Source of the DNA: a virus
UHGV virus genome: UHGV-0236300
Length of the DNA: 64,000 nt
Strand: one strand, 5' to 3'
The notes beneath the pieces were generated by a model. That model did not search any database, was not told the origin of the DNA, and saw nothing but the letters and a program-made list of their open reading frames with translations. A program made the translations under genes and the position numbers. Below, one piece after another: positions 52,448 to 61,862 of this stretch; the stretch's first letter is position 1, and each line of letters begins with the position of its first letter.

Positions 52448-52637
52448 GCTTAAATCTGCATGGAACATTGCTGTGGGTGATGAGATCCGCATCCCTGGTG
52501 GGAAGACCGTTATGAAGATATCTCGTATTGAATACGAAGGCGACCGTGTATTCCACATCTTTGCAGAAGATGGTCGGGAAATTTATGTACAAGCGGGCTC
52601 TCACATCTATATCCGTAAGAAAGGGGATGACAAATGA
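52434..52637 (+). CDS. hypothetical protein
   Basis: RBS AAGGAGGG; short overlap with upstream gene. Confidence 0.5.
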   Translation: MQMFKLKSAWNIAVGDEIRIPGGKTVMKISRIEYEGDRVFHIFAEDGREIYVQAGSHIYIRKKGDDK

Positions 52638-52963
52638 CAGAGATCATTATTTCAACTGCAGGGTATGTATTCCTGACAATCATTGCTCTGACCATTTTGG
52701 TGGCGGTATATGGATTTGTTATTCTACCTATTCTTGAGACAATTAGTTTGTGTCGGTGTTGGAGAAAGGCTTACGGTCCACAGCCGTGGAGGGACTGGCC
52801 CCACCTGGTTCGCATAGCGTTCTCTTATGCTTATGATCACGCCAGCAGTGCATGCATAACCGGGTATCACGCTCACAATTGGAACTGGGAGGGGTTGGGT
52901 AGATGGAATGTTATAAAGACCATACCTCTACGTATGCACAAGCCTAAAAACAAAGACAGTTGA
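52634..52963 (+). CDS. hypothetical membrane protein
   Basis: ATGA overlap; hydrophobic N-terminal segment. Confidence 0.5.
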   Translation: MTEIIISTAGYVFLTIIALTILVAVYGFVILPILETISLCRCWRKAYGPQPWRDWPHLVRIAFSYAYDHASSACITGYHAHNWNWEGLGRWNVIKTIPLRMHKPKNKDS

Positions 52964-53008
52964 TACTTGAAAATCCCTGGCACATCAAGTATAAGGAGGA
53001 TTTCTAAA

Positions 53009-53116
53009 ATGGACTTCCTCCTTTTGATATTTTACCTGGCCGGATATTTTAAAATTCTTAGAAAATCAGAAAATGGATCGAAAACTAAAATGGATTTTTC
53101 AAGACAGGCGCGATAA
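53009..53116 (+). CDS. small hydrophobic peptide (35 aa)
   Basis: Not in ORF track; ATG 7 nt after AAGGAGGA; RBS lies in GGAGGA...TCCTCC inverted repeat. Confidence 0.35.
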   Translation: MDFLLLIFYLAGYFKILRKSENGSKTKMDFSRQAR

Positions 53117-53274
53117 GATGTGCTGCTCATTCTATCGTTCGCACCGTACTTTAAGTTACTATTCCAGATTTTCCGCACATACTCTCACCCTTCTACCAGA
53201 ACTTTCCCAGCTTACCTTTGACCCTTTATAACAATAAACCCATTATTCTCAGTAGGTTTTGATACATCTCTCTC

Positions 53275-53440
53275 AGTACTCGATCTGTTTTTCGTTTCAA
53301 AGATTGAATTTTCTGAAAATTTTTCTCGATAAATTTCTTAGTACTCGATCTGTTTTTCGTTTTCTGAATCAGATTTTCTGGAAATCGTTCCGGAGCTCGA
53401 CCTGAAATTTTTGGGGACGAAATCGATTTTTCGTTTTCGG
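53275..53440. repeat. direct repeats (23-bp iterons, each with a GATC site) in non-coding DNA
   Basis: AGTACTCGATCTGTTTTTCGTTT at 53275 and 53340; degenerate copies at 53392-53440. Confidence 0.6.
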
Positions 53441-53565
53441 AAATGGATTTTTAAAATTTGTATATGGAAATACTTAAGGAGGTATTATTTTATATAGAAT
53501 TGTCACGGTAGGTAATTAGCATGCTAACTAAATTTATGAAATGCGAAAAGTTCTCATTTAGAATT

Positions 53566-53584
53566 TTGAATGATAATCATTCTC
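53566..53584 (+). promoter_or_regulatory. Fur-box-like operator (copy 1)
   Basis: TTGAATGATAATCATTCTC matches 16 of 19 positions of Fur consensus GATAATGATAATCATTATC. Confidence 0.45.
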
Positions 53585-53698
53585 GTTTGCAGAATAACGG
53601 GCACCCCCGGTGATTGTCTCCCGGCCCCTGTTGCCCCGGCTTGTTATTATAGTATCACACAGGACAAAGAAAGCAAGGATTTTTTGCATAAATTTTTA

Positions 53699-53720
53699 AA
53701 TGATAATGATAACCGTTCTC
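53699..53720 (+). promoter_or_regulatory. Fur-box-like operator (copy 2)
   Basis: GATAATGATAACCGTTCTC matches 16 of 19 Fur consensus positions. Confidence 0.4.
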
Positions 53721-53941
53721 ATTTTATGCAGCGCCCATCCCCGGTGGTTGTCTCCCCCGTCACCGGTGCCTGCCGTCCTTTCGATAGGTATATTGTGCCA
53801 CCTGGCGGGGCCGCTGTCAACACTTTTCAAAAAAATTCTAACCTGATGCGCTAACCGTTGCAACCTGGCGGGGCCAGCCTGGCAGGGCTATGCTATAGGG
53901 TAGGCAACAACTGAAGAGGAGGTACAAAAATAAAAGGTAAT

Positions 53942-54103
53942 ATGATCCCTGGAAATGTAGCGATTAATGACGCTGAGGCTATCGCCCTGGTTGAAAAGGC
54001 TATGGCGGGAGCGTTGGAACATAAAGAAGAGTACGAAAAAATGATGGTTAACCTGGCAGGGGCGGCGGCTGGAGAATTCTGCCCAAAAAATAATTCTAAC
54101 TAA
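53942..54103 (+). CDS. small hypothetical protein (53 aa)
   Basis: Not in ORF track; ATG after GAAGAGGAGG. Confidence 0.45.
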   Translation: MIPGNVAINDAEAIALVEKAMAGALEHKEEYEKMMVNLAGAAAGEFCPKNNSN

Positions 54104-54186
54104 TGGTTGACAGCTCGGATAGTTCTGTTATTCTTATCCTCGCAAGGTGAACAACACCACACTAATTAACAGAGAGGATAAAAATC

Positions 54187-54384
54187 ATGAACGCCTACGG
54201 AATTAAAGTACGTCGCAACACTCGCCAGGCCGTCACCGATCAAATGATTTGCCAGGTGGACGTAACCATCAACAACGGGCAAGGCCTTTATAAATTCCGT
54301 CGCGGTCAGAGCTACACCCGGCAACAGCTTAATCGTTGCGCCCTGACAAAAGGCCAGATCAACCACTGGTTTAATAAAAAATAA
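54187..54384 (+). CDS. hypothetical small basic protein
   Basis: RBS GAGAGGA. Confidence 0.5.
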   Translation: MNAYGIKVRRNTRQAVTDQMICQVDVTINNGQGLYKFRRGQSYTRQQLNRCALTKGQINHWFNKK

Positions 54385-54387
54385 GTA

Positions 54388-54416
54388 TTGACATACAGTC
54401 TGACACCAAATACACT
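54388..54416 (+). promoter_or_regulatory. sigma70-like promoter
   Basis: TTGACA-17-TACACT. Confidence 0.45.
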
Positions 54417-54448
54417 AAAAGCACAAAAGACACTAAGAGGATAAAATC

Positions 54449-54847
54449 ATGAAAACCACTACCTTTAATTTTGATAATGCGGACTTTTCTTTTTCTGATG
54501 TCAAGAACTGCCGCCGTGATCGTGGATTTTACAAGGCCTATAATCTGGTGGGCCTGGACGATGACAATAATTTGCACGAAGTAGCTGAGATCCGGTATTA
54601 TGCCGCCGCCAGCGGGAACACTCAATACTGCGTTTTTTGGATTCACGACAACAAGAACAATAAGTACGGTTATACTGGCGGGAAGGCGAGCGGTCACGGT
54701 TACGATAAAGCTAATGCAGCACTTGAGAGCGCATTAAATGCTATGGGGATCACTGCCAACGGCTGGATCTATGAAGAAGAGTTTTTGTCGGCACTTGCTA
54801 ACCACCTGGGCTATAAAAAGCACATTGTAACATGCGCCCACGAATAA
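54449..54847 (+). CDS. hypothetical protein
   Basis: RBS AAGAGGA. Confidence 0.55.
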   Translation: MKTTTFNFDNADFSFSDVKNCRRDRGFYKAYNLVGLDDDNNLHEVAEIRYYAAASGNTQYCVFWIHDNKNNKYGYTGGKASGHGYDKANAALESALNAMGITANGWIYEEEFLSALANHLGYKKHIVTCAHE

Positions 54848-60100: not shown

Positions 60101-60622
60101 TTTTCTCCTCTTTGTCAAGTGCCGCATGAAAAATTTACAAACTGGTATGGTAGCATTTTTGCGGCCCTGTTTACATTCAGGAATGTATGTATAATCCTTG
60201 CTGTGTGGGCGTTTAGACGTCTGGACGGTCAGAAGTCAGCAGGTCAATATCTAATCTATTGGTTGCTAACTATATCCCACACAAATAGTAAGAAATATAA
60301 TTGTTATGTGCGTAAACAGTAACTCATGTTATCAATCCCTGTATGTATCGCCAGTGGTGCGCATAATGGGTATTATGTTAAATTGCCCGTAATGATAACC
60401 ATTCTCACAATGATAGGTATTCTCATTCATCCCCACAAGATAGATTGCAAATGTTGTGCCACTGTGTGAACGGCCTCACCTATTAATTTGCCTCACTGCC
60501 TCGATATTTGAGAATTATTATAAAAAATGAGAAGTATTCCCATTCCGTCCGCCTGGCAGCACTCCTGTAGGACAAGCACAACATCGGGGTATAACTGGAC
60601 CTGTTCAGATATTTCTGGCTGA

Positions 60623-61163
60623 CTCTTCAGGCCTGTGTGGGAAAAGCCAACCTCTCCGGCGGCGGGGAGGGGGGTCAATTAAAAAATTTACGTGGTGTAT
60701 GAAGCGCTCTTCAGGCAAGGTGTGTATTATGGGATGAAACCCTCTTCAGGTGATGATATTTGTGGGGGGATATTTGCTGGAAAGCCAGATATGACGGGGC
60801 TCCCGGCGGGGATGGGGTAGTACAGACAGGGAAAATGTGGGGATGTGGTGGGAGTAAATTGATCAAGTAGGTAGGATATGGAATATGTTACAAGTATGTT
60901 AAATATAGAGGTAGGATATTTGTGAGATTTGTGTGTAAAATCAAAGACTTAGGTGGTGTTGTGGTATTTTCTATAAATAATTCAAGTTTAATAGGTGATA
61001 TTTGTCTCCATCCACTTTGTGTGGTAAACAGCTCCTAATTGAATTGGTTTACAAGTGTATATAAAGTATACAAATTAAAGATATAAGAAACCCCCCTCCC
61101 CCTTCGGCTACCATTCACCTTTTCCTCTGACTGGTACTTAAACACTTATTCAGACTCTTCAGG
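60623..61163. repeat. dispersed CTCTTCAGG motif copies in G/T-rich non-coding DNA
   Basis: CTCTTCAGG at 60623, 60708, 60742 and 61155 (fifth at 61815), each followed by GT-rich tract. Confidence 0.55.
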
Positions 61164-61526
61164 TTATCACCCCTATACTATATGGCAGTGACTGGTGTCC
61201 TCCGGCCCCTCTTTCGCCACCCGTCCGCTTCGCCATGCTAATGCCATAGCCAAAGGTTCGGTTGTTCACCCTGTTCACTCAGGTGTATCTCCATACCCCT
61301 TCAAACCGAAGAGAACAGAAAACCCGAATTACTCGGTAAAAGAAAAGAGAAGAACTTAATTTTATCAAGATAGGCAAGAATGTCAAGGGATGACTGCTCA
61401 CTAAACAAGCAAACAGTCATGTGTGGTAGGTAAGTAACTGGGTTGGTAGGAAATTTAGTTGGAAGATGTTATAGGTGCCTCCAGAACCTTAGCTGGGCAG
61501 CTAAACCTGCAAAGCAGACTTGTGTG

Positions 61527-61742: not shown

Positions 61743-61862
61743 GAAATCTCCTCTGGAAATGAGAGTGTGAACAGGGTTTATACGTTCCAATACGCTGGAA
61801 TTATGCACGTTTGCCTCTTCAGGCCATGCTTTAGCATGATAAACTTATGTGGGCTCGGTGCT

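What the first reader, a model, noticed from the sequence alone, without database searches (positions are those of the whole stretch)
53560..53900. Tandem pair of Fur-box-like operators, each preceding a GC-rich non-coding element
Two near-palindromic sites (53566-53584 and 53699-53720) each match 16 of 19 positions of the enterobacterial Fur box consensus. Each is followed about 10 nt later by TGCAG and a GC-rich segment sharing the core CCCCGGTG(A/G)TTGTCTCCC (53605-53623 and 53739-53757), unlike the AT-rich surroundings. The second element has a CCGGTG...CACCGG inverted repeat. An AACCTGGC(G/A)GGG motif recurs at about 53799, 53862 and 54050. The 94-aa track ORF here starts inside the first Fur box, has no RBS and looks spurious. 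This may be a pair of iron-regulated small RNAs or operators, which would be unusual in a virulent phage.
Basis: partly seen in the sequence, partly recalled or inferred. Interest (0 to 1): 0.7.

Follow-up and report, generated by a model that had tools for sequence, protein, structure and literature searches.

The report
Host Fur operators in phage control region
A virulent rV5-like E. coli phage carries, in a conserved gene-free control region, two binding sites that are almost identical to the host's own iron-repressor (Fur) operators, which suggests the phage reads the host's iron status; the GC-rich pieces next to them look like stretches between opposed promoters, not small RNAs.

Summary
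The window is a Vequintavirus (99.9% identical to phage B9-1 over this region). The finding lies in a 1.2-kb gene-free gap.

Site 1 shares 16 contiguous bases, and 17 of 19 positions, with the gel-shift-confirmed Fur site of the E. coli fhuA promoter. Related phages carry the exact 20-mer AATGATAATCATTCTCATTT. That 20-mer occurs more than 120 times in bacterial genomes, next to fur, TonB-dependent receptor and siderophore genes. A second cluster of four boxes lies at 60.39-60.54 kb.

The same layout recurs in other Vequintavirinae genera and in Stephanstirmvirinae: GATC-containing iterons, then 1-5 Fur boxes, then GAAT..GGCA, then a GC-rich segment. Aeromonas phage 2L372X has it too, and a jumbo-phage contig has the box and GC segment.

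The sRNA reading is not supported. There is no Rfam hit, fold z-scores run from -1.1 to +1.0, there is no covariation and no terminator. The 94-aa ORF is broken in 2 of 9 genomes.

A leftward sigma70 promoter abuts each GC-rich element. The one beside element 2 is a well-conserved early-type promoter; the one beside element 1 has an atypical 19-bp spacer. Weaker rightward promoters overlap the Fur boxes.

Best reading: these are host-Fur operators acting in cis on opposed promoters beside an iteron array, which may be an origin. Fur binding, the transcripts and the function of the whole region are all untested.

The parts
53266..53451 (.). Three iteron-like direct repeats of 65-74 nt. The core is xCTCGATCTGTTTTTCGTTT; two copies carry GATC.
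   Evidence: Repeat family D1/D2. 91-97% pairwise identity within the genus. Other genera have GGTCTCGATCG repeated 3-6 times at the same relative position.
53542..53556 (+). Weak upstream Fur-like 7-1-7 box, TGCGAAAAGTTCTCA.
   Evidence: 11 of 14 to the phage 7-1-7 consensus. Other genera carry 0-4 extra boxes at this position.
53566..53585 (+). Fur operator 1. The 19-mer is 53566-84 and the 7-1-7 core TGATAATCATTCTCG is 53571-85.
   Evidence: 15 of 19 to consensus. 53573-88 is identical over 16 nt to the E. coli fhuA promoter, and 53569-87 is 17 of 19 identical to the gel-shift-confirmed fhuA Fur site. About 99% pairwise identity among 8 genomes (53554-53603 window); columns identical in the 9-genome alignment.
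53566..53603 (+). Candidate Fur-occluded rightward promoter P_R1: TTGAAT (53566-71), 18-bp spacer, CAGAAT (53590-95), GC-rich discriminator, CA start near 53602-03. An alternative is TTCTCA (53551-56), 18 bp, AATCAT (53575-80).
   Evidence: Read from the sequence. GAAT.AC.GGCA is invariant in 13 phages. However, the -11 position varies among genera, so this promoter is only moderately supported.
53596..53645 (.). GC-rich element 1 (core CCCCGGTGATTGTCTCCC, 53605-22): the segment between the opposed promoters P_R1 and P_L1.
   Evidence: 68% GC, C/G ratio 1.43. HMM match at E = 1.7e-17 to the cross-genus alignment. No structure signal.
53646..53676 (-). Leftward promoter P_L1: -35 TTGCTT (53676-71), 19-bp spacer, -10 TATAAT (53651-46).
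   Evidence: In 10 of 17 related loci the best minus-strand promoter lies 43-49 nt from the GGCA anchor. In 9 of these it has a TTG-type -35 (TTGCAA, TTGATC or TTGACT), a 16-17 bp spacer and a TATATT, TATTAT or CATAAT -10. The spacer in this genus is atypically long.
53702..53721 (+). Fur operator 2. The 19-mer is 53702-20 and the 7-1-7 core TGATAACCGTTCTCA is 53707-21.
   Evidence: 16 of 19 to consensus, and the only hit in the window with 3 or fewer mismatches. Overlapping hits at 53696 and 53708 are 6 bp out of register.
53732..53790 (.). GC-rich element 2 (core CCCCGGTGGTTGTCTCCC, 53739-56; inverted repeat CCGGTG 53741-46 / CACCGG 53761-66). It is a genus-specific partial duplicate of element 1.
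   Evidence: 98-99% pairwise identity, the most conserved stretch of the gap. Fold z-scores about -1 on both strands.
53792..53825 (-). Leftward early-type promoter P_L2: AAAAgTGTTGACA (-35 at 53820-15), 17-bp spacer, TGgCACAAT (-10 at 53797-92).
   Evidence: Promoter scan scores it 10 of 12 with an extended -10. It matches the subfamily early-promoter consensus AAAA(N3-4)TGTTGAC(N17-19)TATAAT (PMC7344957). The -35 is invariant, the -10 becomes CATAAT in L023, and the spacer varies, including a 1-nt deletion.
53799..53887 (+). CCTGGCRGGG motif copies at 53799-810, 53862-73 and 53876-87, with one more at 54050-61.
   Evidence: Copy 1 lies in the variable spacer of P_L2 and is not itself conserved. 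Copies 2 and 3 flank a 49-nt indel among genomes. The function is unknown and may relate to recombination.
53570..53854 (+). The 94-aa ORF, which is not a gene.
   Evidence: It stops after 14 aa in phage Alma and after 7 aa in L023. Its C-terminus shifts frame with poly-A length. It has no RBS.
60388..60542 (+). Second cluster of four Fur-like boxes (60393-407, 60411-25, 60509-23, 60528-42) in another ORF-poor zone.
   Evidence: Conserved in phages magaca and navn, where the first pair is annotated 'repeat_region'.

Best explanation
The two sites are genuine operators for the host iron repressor Fur. They sit in a conserved non-coding control module of rV5-like phages.

The module runs in this order: GATC-containing iterons, then Fur boxes, then the motif GAAT..GGCA, then a GC-rich segment, then a promoter on the opposite strand. 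Vequintavirus carries the Fur-box/GC-rich unit twice.

Proposed mechanism:
1. When iron is plentiful, Fur-Fe2+ occupies the boxes and shuts the weak rightward promoters embedded in them. The candidate is TTGAAT-18-CAGAAT with a start near 53603.
2. The leftward promoters P_L1 and P_L2 (P_L2 being early-type) fire back across each GC-rich element, through the Fur boxes and towards the iterons. Bound Fur may also hinder them.
3. When iron is scarce, Fur leaves and the opposed promoters collide. This changes how much leftward transcription reaches the iteron array, which may be an origin or an early-control site.

On this reading the GC-rich 'elements' are the roughly 40-bp initially transcribed stretch shared by the opposed promoters. 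They are not structured small RNAs.

Shown: operator identity, conservation of the module, the promoter motifs, and the absence of an RNA-structure signal.
Inferred: Fur occupancy in vivo, which promoters fire, interference between them, and any role in replication.
For: Fur identity:
- 16-nt exact identity and 17 of 19 positions shared with the gel-shift-confirmed fhuA Fur site.
- 15 and 16 of 19 matches to the consensus, with hits 6 bp out of register as in real Fur clusters (PMC2189734).
- The exact 20-mer of sister phages occurs more than 120 times in bacteria of many phyla. Adjacent genes include FUR (10), TonB-dependent receptors (8), solute-binding proteins (7) and IucA/IucC, FhuF and PepSY_TM (3 each).
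- No Fur homologue was found in any Vequintavirinae record.

Selection:
- 53554-53827 is 93-99% identical among 8 genomes, against 66-88% in the flanks.
- The box plus element 1 is conserved at about 80% in Certre-, Mydo-, Seuna-, Phapecocta- and Justusliebigvirus, a Serratia phage and Aeromonas phage 2L372X. A 347-kb jumbo-phage contig carries the exact box and a similar, shorter downstream motif.
- Where a phage has a single box, it is always the one abutting GAAT..GGCA. This favours action in cis.

Promoters:
- A minus-strand promoter lies at a fixed 43-49 nt from the anchor in 10 of 17 loci, with variable spacers.
- P_L2 is early-type. Its hexamers are conserved while its spacer varies.

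Not an sRNA or a gene.
Against: - No binding or transcript data exist for any of these phages.
- The -11 base of the rightward -10 (nnGAAT) is A in only about 60% of loci, so P_R may be weak or inactive in some genera.
- P_L1 in this genus has a 19-bp spacer.
- The Fur boxes lie about 55-85 nt downstream of the leftward start sites. That position is unusual for repression.
- Element 2 is conserved more strictly (98-99%) than a mere inter-promoter spacer needs. It probably has a further sequence-specific role that I could not identify.
- The GC-skew change at 53 kb is in the wrong direction for a simple bidirectional origin.
- There is no DnaA or IHF site enrichment.
Confidence: 0.5

Rival explanations
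1. One reading: each Fur box drives an iron-repressed small regulatory RNA, RyhB-like, made from the GC-rich element.
For: The Fur box overlaps a sigma70-like -35 and spacer, with a conserved CA start. In other genera the rightward transcript would run about 250 nt through a conserved block to a hairpin.
Against: There is no Rfam hit. Fold z-scores are between -1.1 and +1.0. There is no consensus structure or covariation. The only terminator-like site in 52900-54500 lies upstream of the boxes, at 53407-53444. The plus strand is C-rich and unstructured, which by general knowledge is the look of a Rho-loading site. Element 2 lacks the GAAT -10.
Confidence: 0.12
2. The region is the phage replication origin. 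The iterons bind an initiator, and the leftward promoters give a G-rich primer or activator transcript, as at T4 oriF, T7 ori or ColE1. The AT-rich Fur boxes act as the unwinding element or recruit Fur as an accessory or gating factor. This overlaps with the best explanation.
For: There are 3-6 GATC-containing iterons, A-tracts and an ORF-free stretch of 0.8-1.2 kb, conserved whatever the flanking genes. Leftward early promoters have no ORF to express and point at the iterons. The leftward RNA begins with G clusters.
Against: There is no similarity to plasmid origins. DnaA and IHF sites are not enriched. The GC skew falls rather than rises across the site. No initiator gene was identified next to it. 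Type II elements in other genera are not uniformly G-rich.
Confidence: 0.2
3. The boxes act as a Fur decoy. As the genome amplifies, about seven high-affinity boxes per copy titrate host Fur and derepress iron uptake, feeding the phage's iron-dependent ribonucleotide reductases.
For: There are two clusters per genome, 3 + 4 boxes, and up to five tandem boxes in phage SD2. Multicopy Fur boxes are known to titrate Fur; this is the principle of the FURTA assay, which I cite from general knowledge.
Against: Several genera keep only one box, always at a fixed position beside the promoter motif. That argues for action in cis. Late titration would act slowly compared with a lytic cycle.
Confidence: 0.1
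4. The boxes are operators for a phage-encoded DNA-binding protein and resemble Fur boxes only by convergence.
For: The phage consensus prefers TTCTCA over the Fur consensus TTATCA. The boxes co-occur with phage-specific iterons.
Against: The TTCTC variant is itself a validated Fur site, at fhuA. It is also the form found beside fur and iron-uptake genes in many phyla. The same box occurs in a 347-kb jumbo-phage contig and other contigs of very different size. No Fur homologue was found in these phages.
Confidence: 0.07
5. The 94-aa ORF (53570-53854) is a real protein-coding gene, and the conservation reflects coding constraint.
For: It is annotated as a hypothetical protein in rV5, FV3 and Mangalyan.
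Against: It is truncated to 14 aa and 7 aa in 2 of 9 genomes, and its C-terminus shifts frame with poly-A length. It has no RBS. Conservation is uniform over all codon positions. Cross-genus indels are 1, 2, 3 and 5 nt long.
Confidence: 0.01

Closest known systems
E. coli fhuA promoter Fur operator (and Fur-repressed sigma70 promoters in general)
   Same: Site 1 shares 16 contiguous bases and 17 of 19 positions with the gel-shift-confirmed fhuA site. The boxes overlap sigma70-like hexamers and occur as clusters with 6-bp phasing, as described for E. coli Fur clusters (PMC2189734).
   Different: The operators lie in the genome of a virulent phage, with no iron-uptake gene downstream. They are arranged with iterons and an opposing promoter, and they are repeated at two loci.
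Fur-regulated cargo genes of temperate phages (stx1 of H-19B-type phages; sitABCD of lambdoid prophages, PMC6969025)
   Same: Phage DNA carries a host Fur box, so expression follows host iron status.
   Different: There the box controls a bacterial-type cargo operon in a lysogen. Here it sits in the core non-coding control region of strictly lytic phages and is conserved across subfamilies.
Face-to-face promoter switches (coliphage 186 pR/pL, P2 Pe/Pc) and antisense-controlled plasmid origins (ColE1 RNA I / RNA II)
   Same: Two opposed promoters lie a few tens of bp apart and share a short overlapping transcribed segment. One is under repressor control, and in the plasmid cases the pair is adjacent to replication determinants.
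   Different: There is no sequence homology. The repressor would be a host metalloregulator. Interference and any link to replication are inferred from the layout only. This comparison rests on my general knowledge.
Iteron-type origins (RK2 oriV, P1 oriR, lambda ori) and promoter-primed phage origins (T4 oriF/oriG, T7 primary origin)
   Same: A direct-repeat array lies next to an AT-rich repeated segment and then a GC-rich segment. The iterons contain GATC, and a promoter points into the AT-rich zone.
   Different: DnaA and IHF sites are not enriched, no initiator was identified, there is no plasmid similarity, and the skew gives no support.
RyhB / PrrF Fur-repressed small RNAs
   Same: A Fur box lies at a promoter that is followed by non-coding sequence.
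   Different: No conserved structure, Hfq-type terminator or Rfam match was found. Membership fails on every feature I could test.

Membership tests
Fur operator (Fur box) | Match to the 19-bp consensus GATAATGATAATCATTATC, or to the 7-1-7 motif TGATAATnATTATCA | tested here: met
   15 of 19 and 16 of 19 to the 19-mer; 12 of 14 and 11 of 14 to the 7-1-7 motif. The top-scoring positions in 64 kb fall in the two box clusters.
Fur operator (Fur box) | Sequence equivalence to an experimentally bound site of the host | tested here: met
   17 of 19 positions and 16 contiguous bases are identical to the fhuA site centred at 167439, which scores 19.5 bits and is gel-shift positive.
Fur operator (Fur box) | The same sequence is used next to Fur-regulon genes in bacteria | tested here: met
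   The exact 20-mer of sister phages (one mismatch in this window) lies beside FUR, TonB-dependent receptor, solute-binding-protein and siderophore synthetase genes.
Fur operator (Fur box) | Clustered overlapping sites with 3- or 6-bp phasing that overlap a sigma70 promoter | tested here: met
   Hit groups 53566/53572, 53696/53702/53708 and 60388/60394/60406. Sigma70-like hexamers overlap the boxes on both strands.
Fur operator (Fur box) | Metal-dependent binding by Fur, and iron-dependent repression in vivo | not testable with these tools
   This needs EMSA or footprinting and a comparison of wild-type with delta-fur hosts.
Fur-repressed small RNA (RyhB/PrrF type) | A discrete structured RNA with an intrinsic terminator | tested here: not met
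   Fold z-scores are -1.1 to +1.0. The only terminator-like site in 52900-54500 lies upstream of the boxes. There is no Rfam hit even at E <= 5.
Fur-repressed small RNA (RyhB/PrrF type) | Structure conserved by covariation among homologues | tested here: not met
   RNAalifold gives -4.2 and -1.0 kcal/mol. The hand-built structure has 71.6% of cells paired against 70.2% in shuffles.
Iteron-type replication origin | Three or more direct repeats with regular spacing next to an AT-rich segment | tested here: met
   Three repeats spaced 65 and 74 nt apart. Other genera have 3-6 copies.
Iteron-type replication origin | Host-factor sites (DnaA, IHF) or an adjacent initiator gene | tested here: not met
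   DnaA and IHF sites are not enriched. The neighbouring genes vary between genera and are of unknown function.
Iteron-type replication origin | Origin activity (copy-number peak, autonomous replication) | not testable with these tools
   Only composition could be examined, and the skew change at 53 kb does not have the sign expected of an origin.
Protein-coding gene (94-aa ORF) | Reading frame kept intact among relatives | tested here: not met
   The frame is broken in 2 of 9 genomes and the C-terminus is frameshifted in others.

The most novel reading that the evidence does not exclude
rV5-like virulent phages, and relatives in two subfamilies, use the host Fur protein as an iron sensor wired directly into their non-coding iteron and control region. 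Iron status would then gate origin firing or the early programme. This could underlie the unexplained tendency of Vequintavirinae to persist in E. coli isolates. Alternatively, or in addition, the amplified box arrays may titrate Fur to derepress host iron uptake for the phage's ribonucleotide reductases.
Probability: 0.18. Interest if true: 0.85.

Novelty: new variant of a known kind. Interest (0 to 1): 0.62.

Why it matters
Fur boxes on phage DNA are known only as switches for bacterial-type cargo genes in prophages, such as stx1 and sit. Here, canonical host Fur operators sit in the core gene-free control region of strictly lytic phages. They are under stronger selection than the neighbouring genes. 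They are conserved across Vequintavirinae and Stephanstirmvirinae and reach an Aeromonas phage and a jumbo phage.

If Fur really binds, these widely used therapeutic and biocontrol phages would sense host iron status. Iron varies sharply between gut, urine, blood and food, so phage efficacy, replication timing and persistence could depend on it.

The work also gives the first anatomy of the 'non-coding' regions that rV5-type genome papers left blank. It corrects spurious annotations: a 94-aa ORF in several records and a 'tRNA-Met' in a Klebsiella phage record.

I found no paper in the searchable library that links Fur with these phages.

Tried and rejected
- tRNA or tRNA remnant: a Klebsiella phage record annotates 'tRNA-Met' over the homologous stretch, but ARAGORN finds nothing in the window or in five related loci.
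- Known RNA family: no Rfam hit at gathering score or at E <= 5.
- Pseudo-ToxI of phage phiTE: it lies elsewhere in that genome, at 106.7 kb.
- Structured RNA in the GC-rich element: RNAalifold on both strands, single-sequence z-scores and an explicit covariation count were all negative.
- 'Block B', a conserved downstream element in other genera: absent from the window by nhmmer. Its strand could not be settled.
- Phage-encoded Fur: tblastn gave no hit in these phages.
- DnaA and IHF boxes: no enrichment.
- Genome terminus at locus 2: several records start or end there, but at scattered positions. The annotated 'repeat_region' turned out to be the tandem Fur boxes, not a terminal repeat.
- Function from neighbouring genes: these are NADAR, DUF7170 and unknown PHROGs, and they vary between genera.
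- Neighbours of Fur boxes in unrelated viral contigs: uninformative.
- Literature: I found no transcriptome or TSS map of any Vequintavirinae or Stephanstirmvirinae phage.
Full report
**Where the finding sits**

The window is a Vequintavirus (rV5/FV3-like myovirus). Positions 53200-54200 are 99.9% identical to Escherichia phage B9-1 and 91-98% identical to about 100 other records. The finding lies in an ORF-free gap of about 1.2 kb, roughly 52964-54186, between small plus-strand genes. B9-1 annotates nothing there. Other records annotate short hypothetical ORFs.

**Checking the observation**

Every feature exists.
- 53566-84 matches the 19-bp Fur consensus at 15 of 19.
- 53702-20 matches at 16 of 19. 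It is the only site with 3 or fewer mismatches in 64 kb, against 0.01 expected.
- The core CCCCGGTGRTTGTCTCCC occurs exactly twice.
- AACCTGGCRGGG occurs four times.
- The GC-rich pieces are 66-68% GC within 28% GC flanks.

Three things were missed.
- A weaker box at 53542.
- Three 65-74-nt iterons at 53266-53451.
- A second cluster of four boxes at 60393-60542, in another ORF-poor zone.

The three hits of 15/19 or better in the whole window are at 53566, 53702 and 60388. Each has overlapping hits 6 bp out of register. That pattern is the one described for real E. coli Fur clusters (PMC2189734).

**Are these Fur boxes?**

Four independent tests say yes.
1. Window 53573-53588 (ATAATCATTCTCGTTT) is identical over 16 nt to the E. 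coli K-12 fhuA promoter. The 19-mer 53569-87 is 17 of 19 identical to the fhuA Fur site centred at 167439. Chen et al. score that site at 19.5 bits and confirmed it by gel shift.
2. Sister phages carry the exact 20-mer AATGATAATCATTCTCATTT, which differs from this window by one base. It occurs in more than 120 bacterial genome stretches from Beta- and Gammaproteobacteria, cyanobacteria, Firmicutes, Chloroflexi and Actinobacteria. By my calculation about one occurrence is expected by chance.
3. I examined 91 ORFs that start within 160 nt of those sites. Ten are Fur itself, eight are TonB-dependent receptors and seven are extracellular solute-binding proteins. Three each are IucA/IucC, FhuF and PepSY_TM, and FecCD and ZnuA also appear.
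4. tblastn with E. coli Fur finds no homologue in any Vequintavirinae record. The binder would therefore be the host protein.

**Conservation**

Within the genus I aligned 9 genomes and computed a pairwise-identity profile over 8. The stretch 53554-53827 is 93-99% identical pairwise. The flanks are 66-88% identical, and identity falls to 20-70% just downstream.

Beyond the genus, blastn finds the box plus element 1 at about 80% identity in many otherwise diverged phages:
- Certrevirus (CR3, phiTE)
- Mydovirus (Klebsiella phages)
- Seunavirus (4MG, SSE121)
- Serratia phage Kashira
- Phapecoctavirus and Justusliebigvirus
- Aeromonas phage 2L372X

An exact-pattern scan of IMG/VR adds a 347-kb jumbo-phage contig and others.

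Reading these loci shows one architecture:
- TGATATTTG repeats
- 3-6 GATC-containing iterons (GGTCTCGATCG...)
- 1-5 tandem boxes with consensus TGAnAATnATTCTCA-TTT
- the invariant motif GAAT.AC.GGCA
- a GC-rich segment of about 45 nt containing GGTG.TTGTCT
- a TATAAT-like hexamer
- in genera other than Vequintavirus, a further conserved 'block B' and the terminator of a small minus-strand ORF

The flanking genes differ between genera (NADAR, phrog_12463, an HNH endonuclease), so the module is autonomous. Vequintavirus lacks block B. Instead it has a partial duplicate of the box/GC unit, which is element 2.

**Not a gene and not a structured sRNA**

The 94-aa ORF stops after 14 aa in phage Alma, because of a +1 indel, and after 7 aa in contig L023. 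Its C-terminus shifts frame with poly-A length. Cross-genus indels are 1, 2, 3 and 5 nt long.

Evidence against a structured RNA:
- Rfam gives nothing at gathering score or at E <= 5.
- The GC-rich elements fold no better than shuffled sequence: z = +1.0 and +0.6 for element 1 (plus and minus strand), and -1.0 and -1.1 for element 2.
- RNAalifold over 13 phages gives -4.2 and -1.0 kcal/mol with almost no covariation.
- A long-range stem plus inner hairpin that I built by eye is not supported: 71.6% of cells are paired, against 70.2% in shuffles.
- The scan found one terminator-like site in 52900-54500, at 53407-53444, upstream of the boxes.

**Promoters**

These phages rely on host RNA polymerase. 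Their early promoters follow AAAA(N3-4)TGTTGAC(N17-19)TATAAT (PMC7344957).

Immediately to the right of each GC-rich element there is a promoter on the minus strand.
- P_L2 is AAAAgTGTTGACA-17-TGgCACAAT (53820 to 53792) and scores 10 of 12. Its -35 is invariant within the genus. Its -10 becomes CATAAT in one lineage. Its spacer varies, including a 1-nt deletion. This is the signature of a working promoter.
- P_L1 is TTGCTT-19-TATAAT (53676 to 53646).
- In 10 of 17 related loci the best minus-strand promoter lies 43-49 nt from the GGCA anchor. Nine of these combine a TTG-type -35 (TTGCAA, TTGATC or TTGACT) with a 16-17-bp divergent spacer and a TATATT, TATTAT or CATAAT -10. In the jumbo-phage contig the promoter is 17 nt away.

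These leftward promoters face a run of rightward genes and have no ORF to express. Their transcripts would cross the GC-rich element, then the Fur boxes, then the iterons.

On the plus strand the boxes overlap sigma70-like hexamers.
- TTGAAT-18-CAGAAT, followed by a GC-rich discriminator and a conserved CA.
- Alternatively, TTCTCA-18-AATCAT.
- The -11 position of nnGAAT is A in only about 60% of loci. Rightward promoters are therefore plausible but weaker.

**Interpretation**

What is shown: canonical host-Fur operator sequences under strong purifying selection, at a fixed position between iterons and a conserved opposing promoter, in many phage genera.

What I infer: Fur-Fe2+ occupies the boxes and represses rightward initiation within them, and may also hinder the leftward transcripts. 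The GC-rich elements are the roughly 40-bp initially transcribed segments shared by the opposed promoters. Iron limitation changes the balance of convergent transcription that reaches the iteron array.

The purpose of the iteron array is unresolved. It could be a replication origin or an early-control site. For an origin there are the iterons with GATC, the inward-pointing promoters and the autonomy of the module. Against it there is no DnaA or IHF enrichment, no plasmid-origin similarity, no adjacent initiator gene, and a GC-skew change of the wrong sign.

A Fur-decoy role is possible, because there are seven boxes per genome. It is less likely to be primary, because some genera keep a single box, always the one beside the promoter motif.

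Element 2 is conserved more tightly than this model requires, so something about it remains unexplained.

**Novelty**

Fur-regulated promoters are textbook material, and Fur boxes on prophage cargo genes are known (sit, PMC6969025; stx1). I found no report of Fur operators in the core non-coding region of virulent phages. I also found no transcriptome of these phages.

Vequintavirinae are the commonest 'persistent virulent phages' in E. coli isolates, by an unknown mechanism (bioRxiv 10.1101/2024.12.31.630880). A host-sensor-gated control region would be a candidate worth testing.

**Verdict**

The small-RNA half is not supported. The element is one unit of a widespread, previously undescribed non-coding module. 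Its mechanism is inferred and needs binding and transcript data.

Noticed in passing
window 60323-61526: A second ORF-poor zone of 1.2 kb lies where the plus-strand and minus-strand gene blocks converge. It holds four Fur-like boxes (60393, 60411, 60509, 60528). CTCTTCAGG occurs at 60623, 60707, 60742 and 61155, with a fifth copy just downstream at 61815; there are 7 copies in the window against 0.66 expected. GATATTTG occurs five times between 60503 and 61004. The zone is specific to Vequintavirus, mostly unannotated, and corresponds to rV5 104.0-105.2 kb, probably the 'non-coding' box in that paper's map. Several GenBank records begin or end inside it.
   Followed up: partly
window 53266-53451 (and L003, L005, L152-L156): Three iteron-like 65-74-nt direct repeats have a CTCGATC core. 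Other genera carry 3-6 GGTCTCGATCG repeats with internal palindromes and A-tracts, preceded by 3-4 TGATATTTG repeats. This may be an origin or a regulator-binding array.
   Followed up: partly
L004:2680-2790, L003:2638-2740, L152-L157, L024:5732-5861: A conserved non-coding 'block B' of about 90 nt (GCTACCGGCGATCnACCTTCC, a hairpin, GGTAYGTTAGCCCCGCC...GTGGGGTGGCG) lies downstream of the Fur-box unit in five other genera. In Aeromonas phage 2L372X it lies 2 kb away. Some hairpin changes look compensatory. It has no Rfam match and is absent from this window. The strand could not be settled.
   Followed up: partly
L005:2504-2576 (Klebsiella phage vB_Kpn_K45PH128C2, OY978796.1): This record annotates 'tRNA-Met' exactly over the Fur box plus GC-rich element, with 'tRNA-Ile' next to it. 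ARAGORN finds no tRNA there, so the annotation is probably wrong.
   Followed up: yes
CP057073.1 (PLSDB), matching window 53275-53888: A 137.6-kb E. coli 'plasmid' is in fact a Vequintavirus genome. This fits reports that Vequintavirinae are the commonest persistent virulent phages in E. coli isolates.
   Followed up: partly
window about 52500-54500: GC skew falls from about +0.2 to about 0.03 and AT skew rises from about 0.03 to about 0.2 across the gap. The genes on both sides are on the same strand. The gap may separate two gene blocks with different histories or expression classes.
   Followed up: no
window 53877 (indel), 53862-53887: Other Vequintaviruses carry an insertion of 34-49 nt here, flanked by CCTGGYRGG motif copies. 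The motif may mark a recombination or deletion hotspot rather than a conserved site. The copy at 53799 lies in a variable promoter spacer.
   Followed up: partly
L011:1560-1700 (IMG/VR contig 3300043427_003388, 33 kb): A viral contig of different size (33 kb) with no obvious relation to these phages has three Fur boxes interleaved with short GC-rich hairpins. The layout recalls the tandem 'box + GC-rich' arrangement in this window.
   Followed up: no
window 53942-54103 (+): A 53-aa ORF matches phrog_21957 at E = 1.5e-30 but is not annotated in the near-identical phage B9-1. It is probably a real small gene.
   Followed up: partly
window 53685-53692 and 53723-53730: An 8-bp inverted repeat, TGCATAAA / TTTATGCA, brackets Fur box 2. 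It is degraded without compensation in contig L023, so it is probably not functional.
   Followed up: partly
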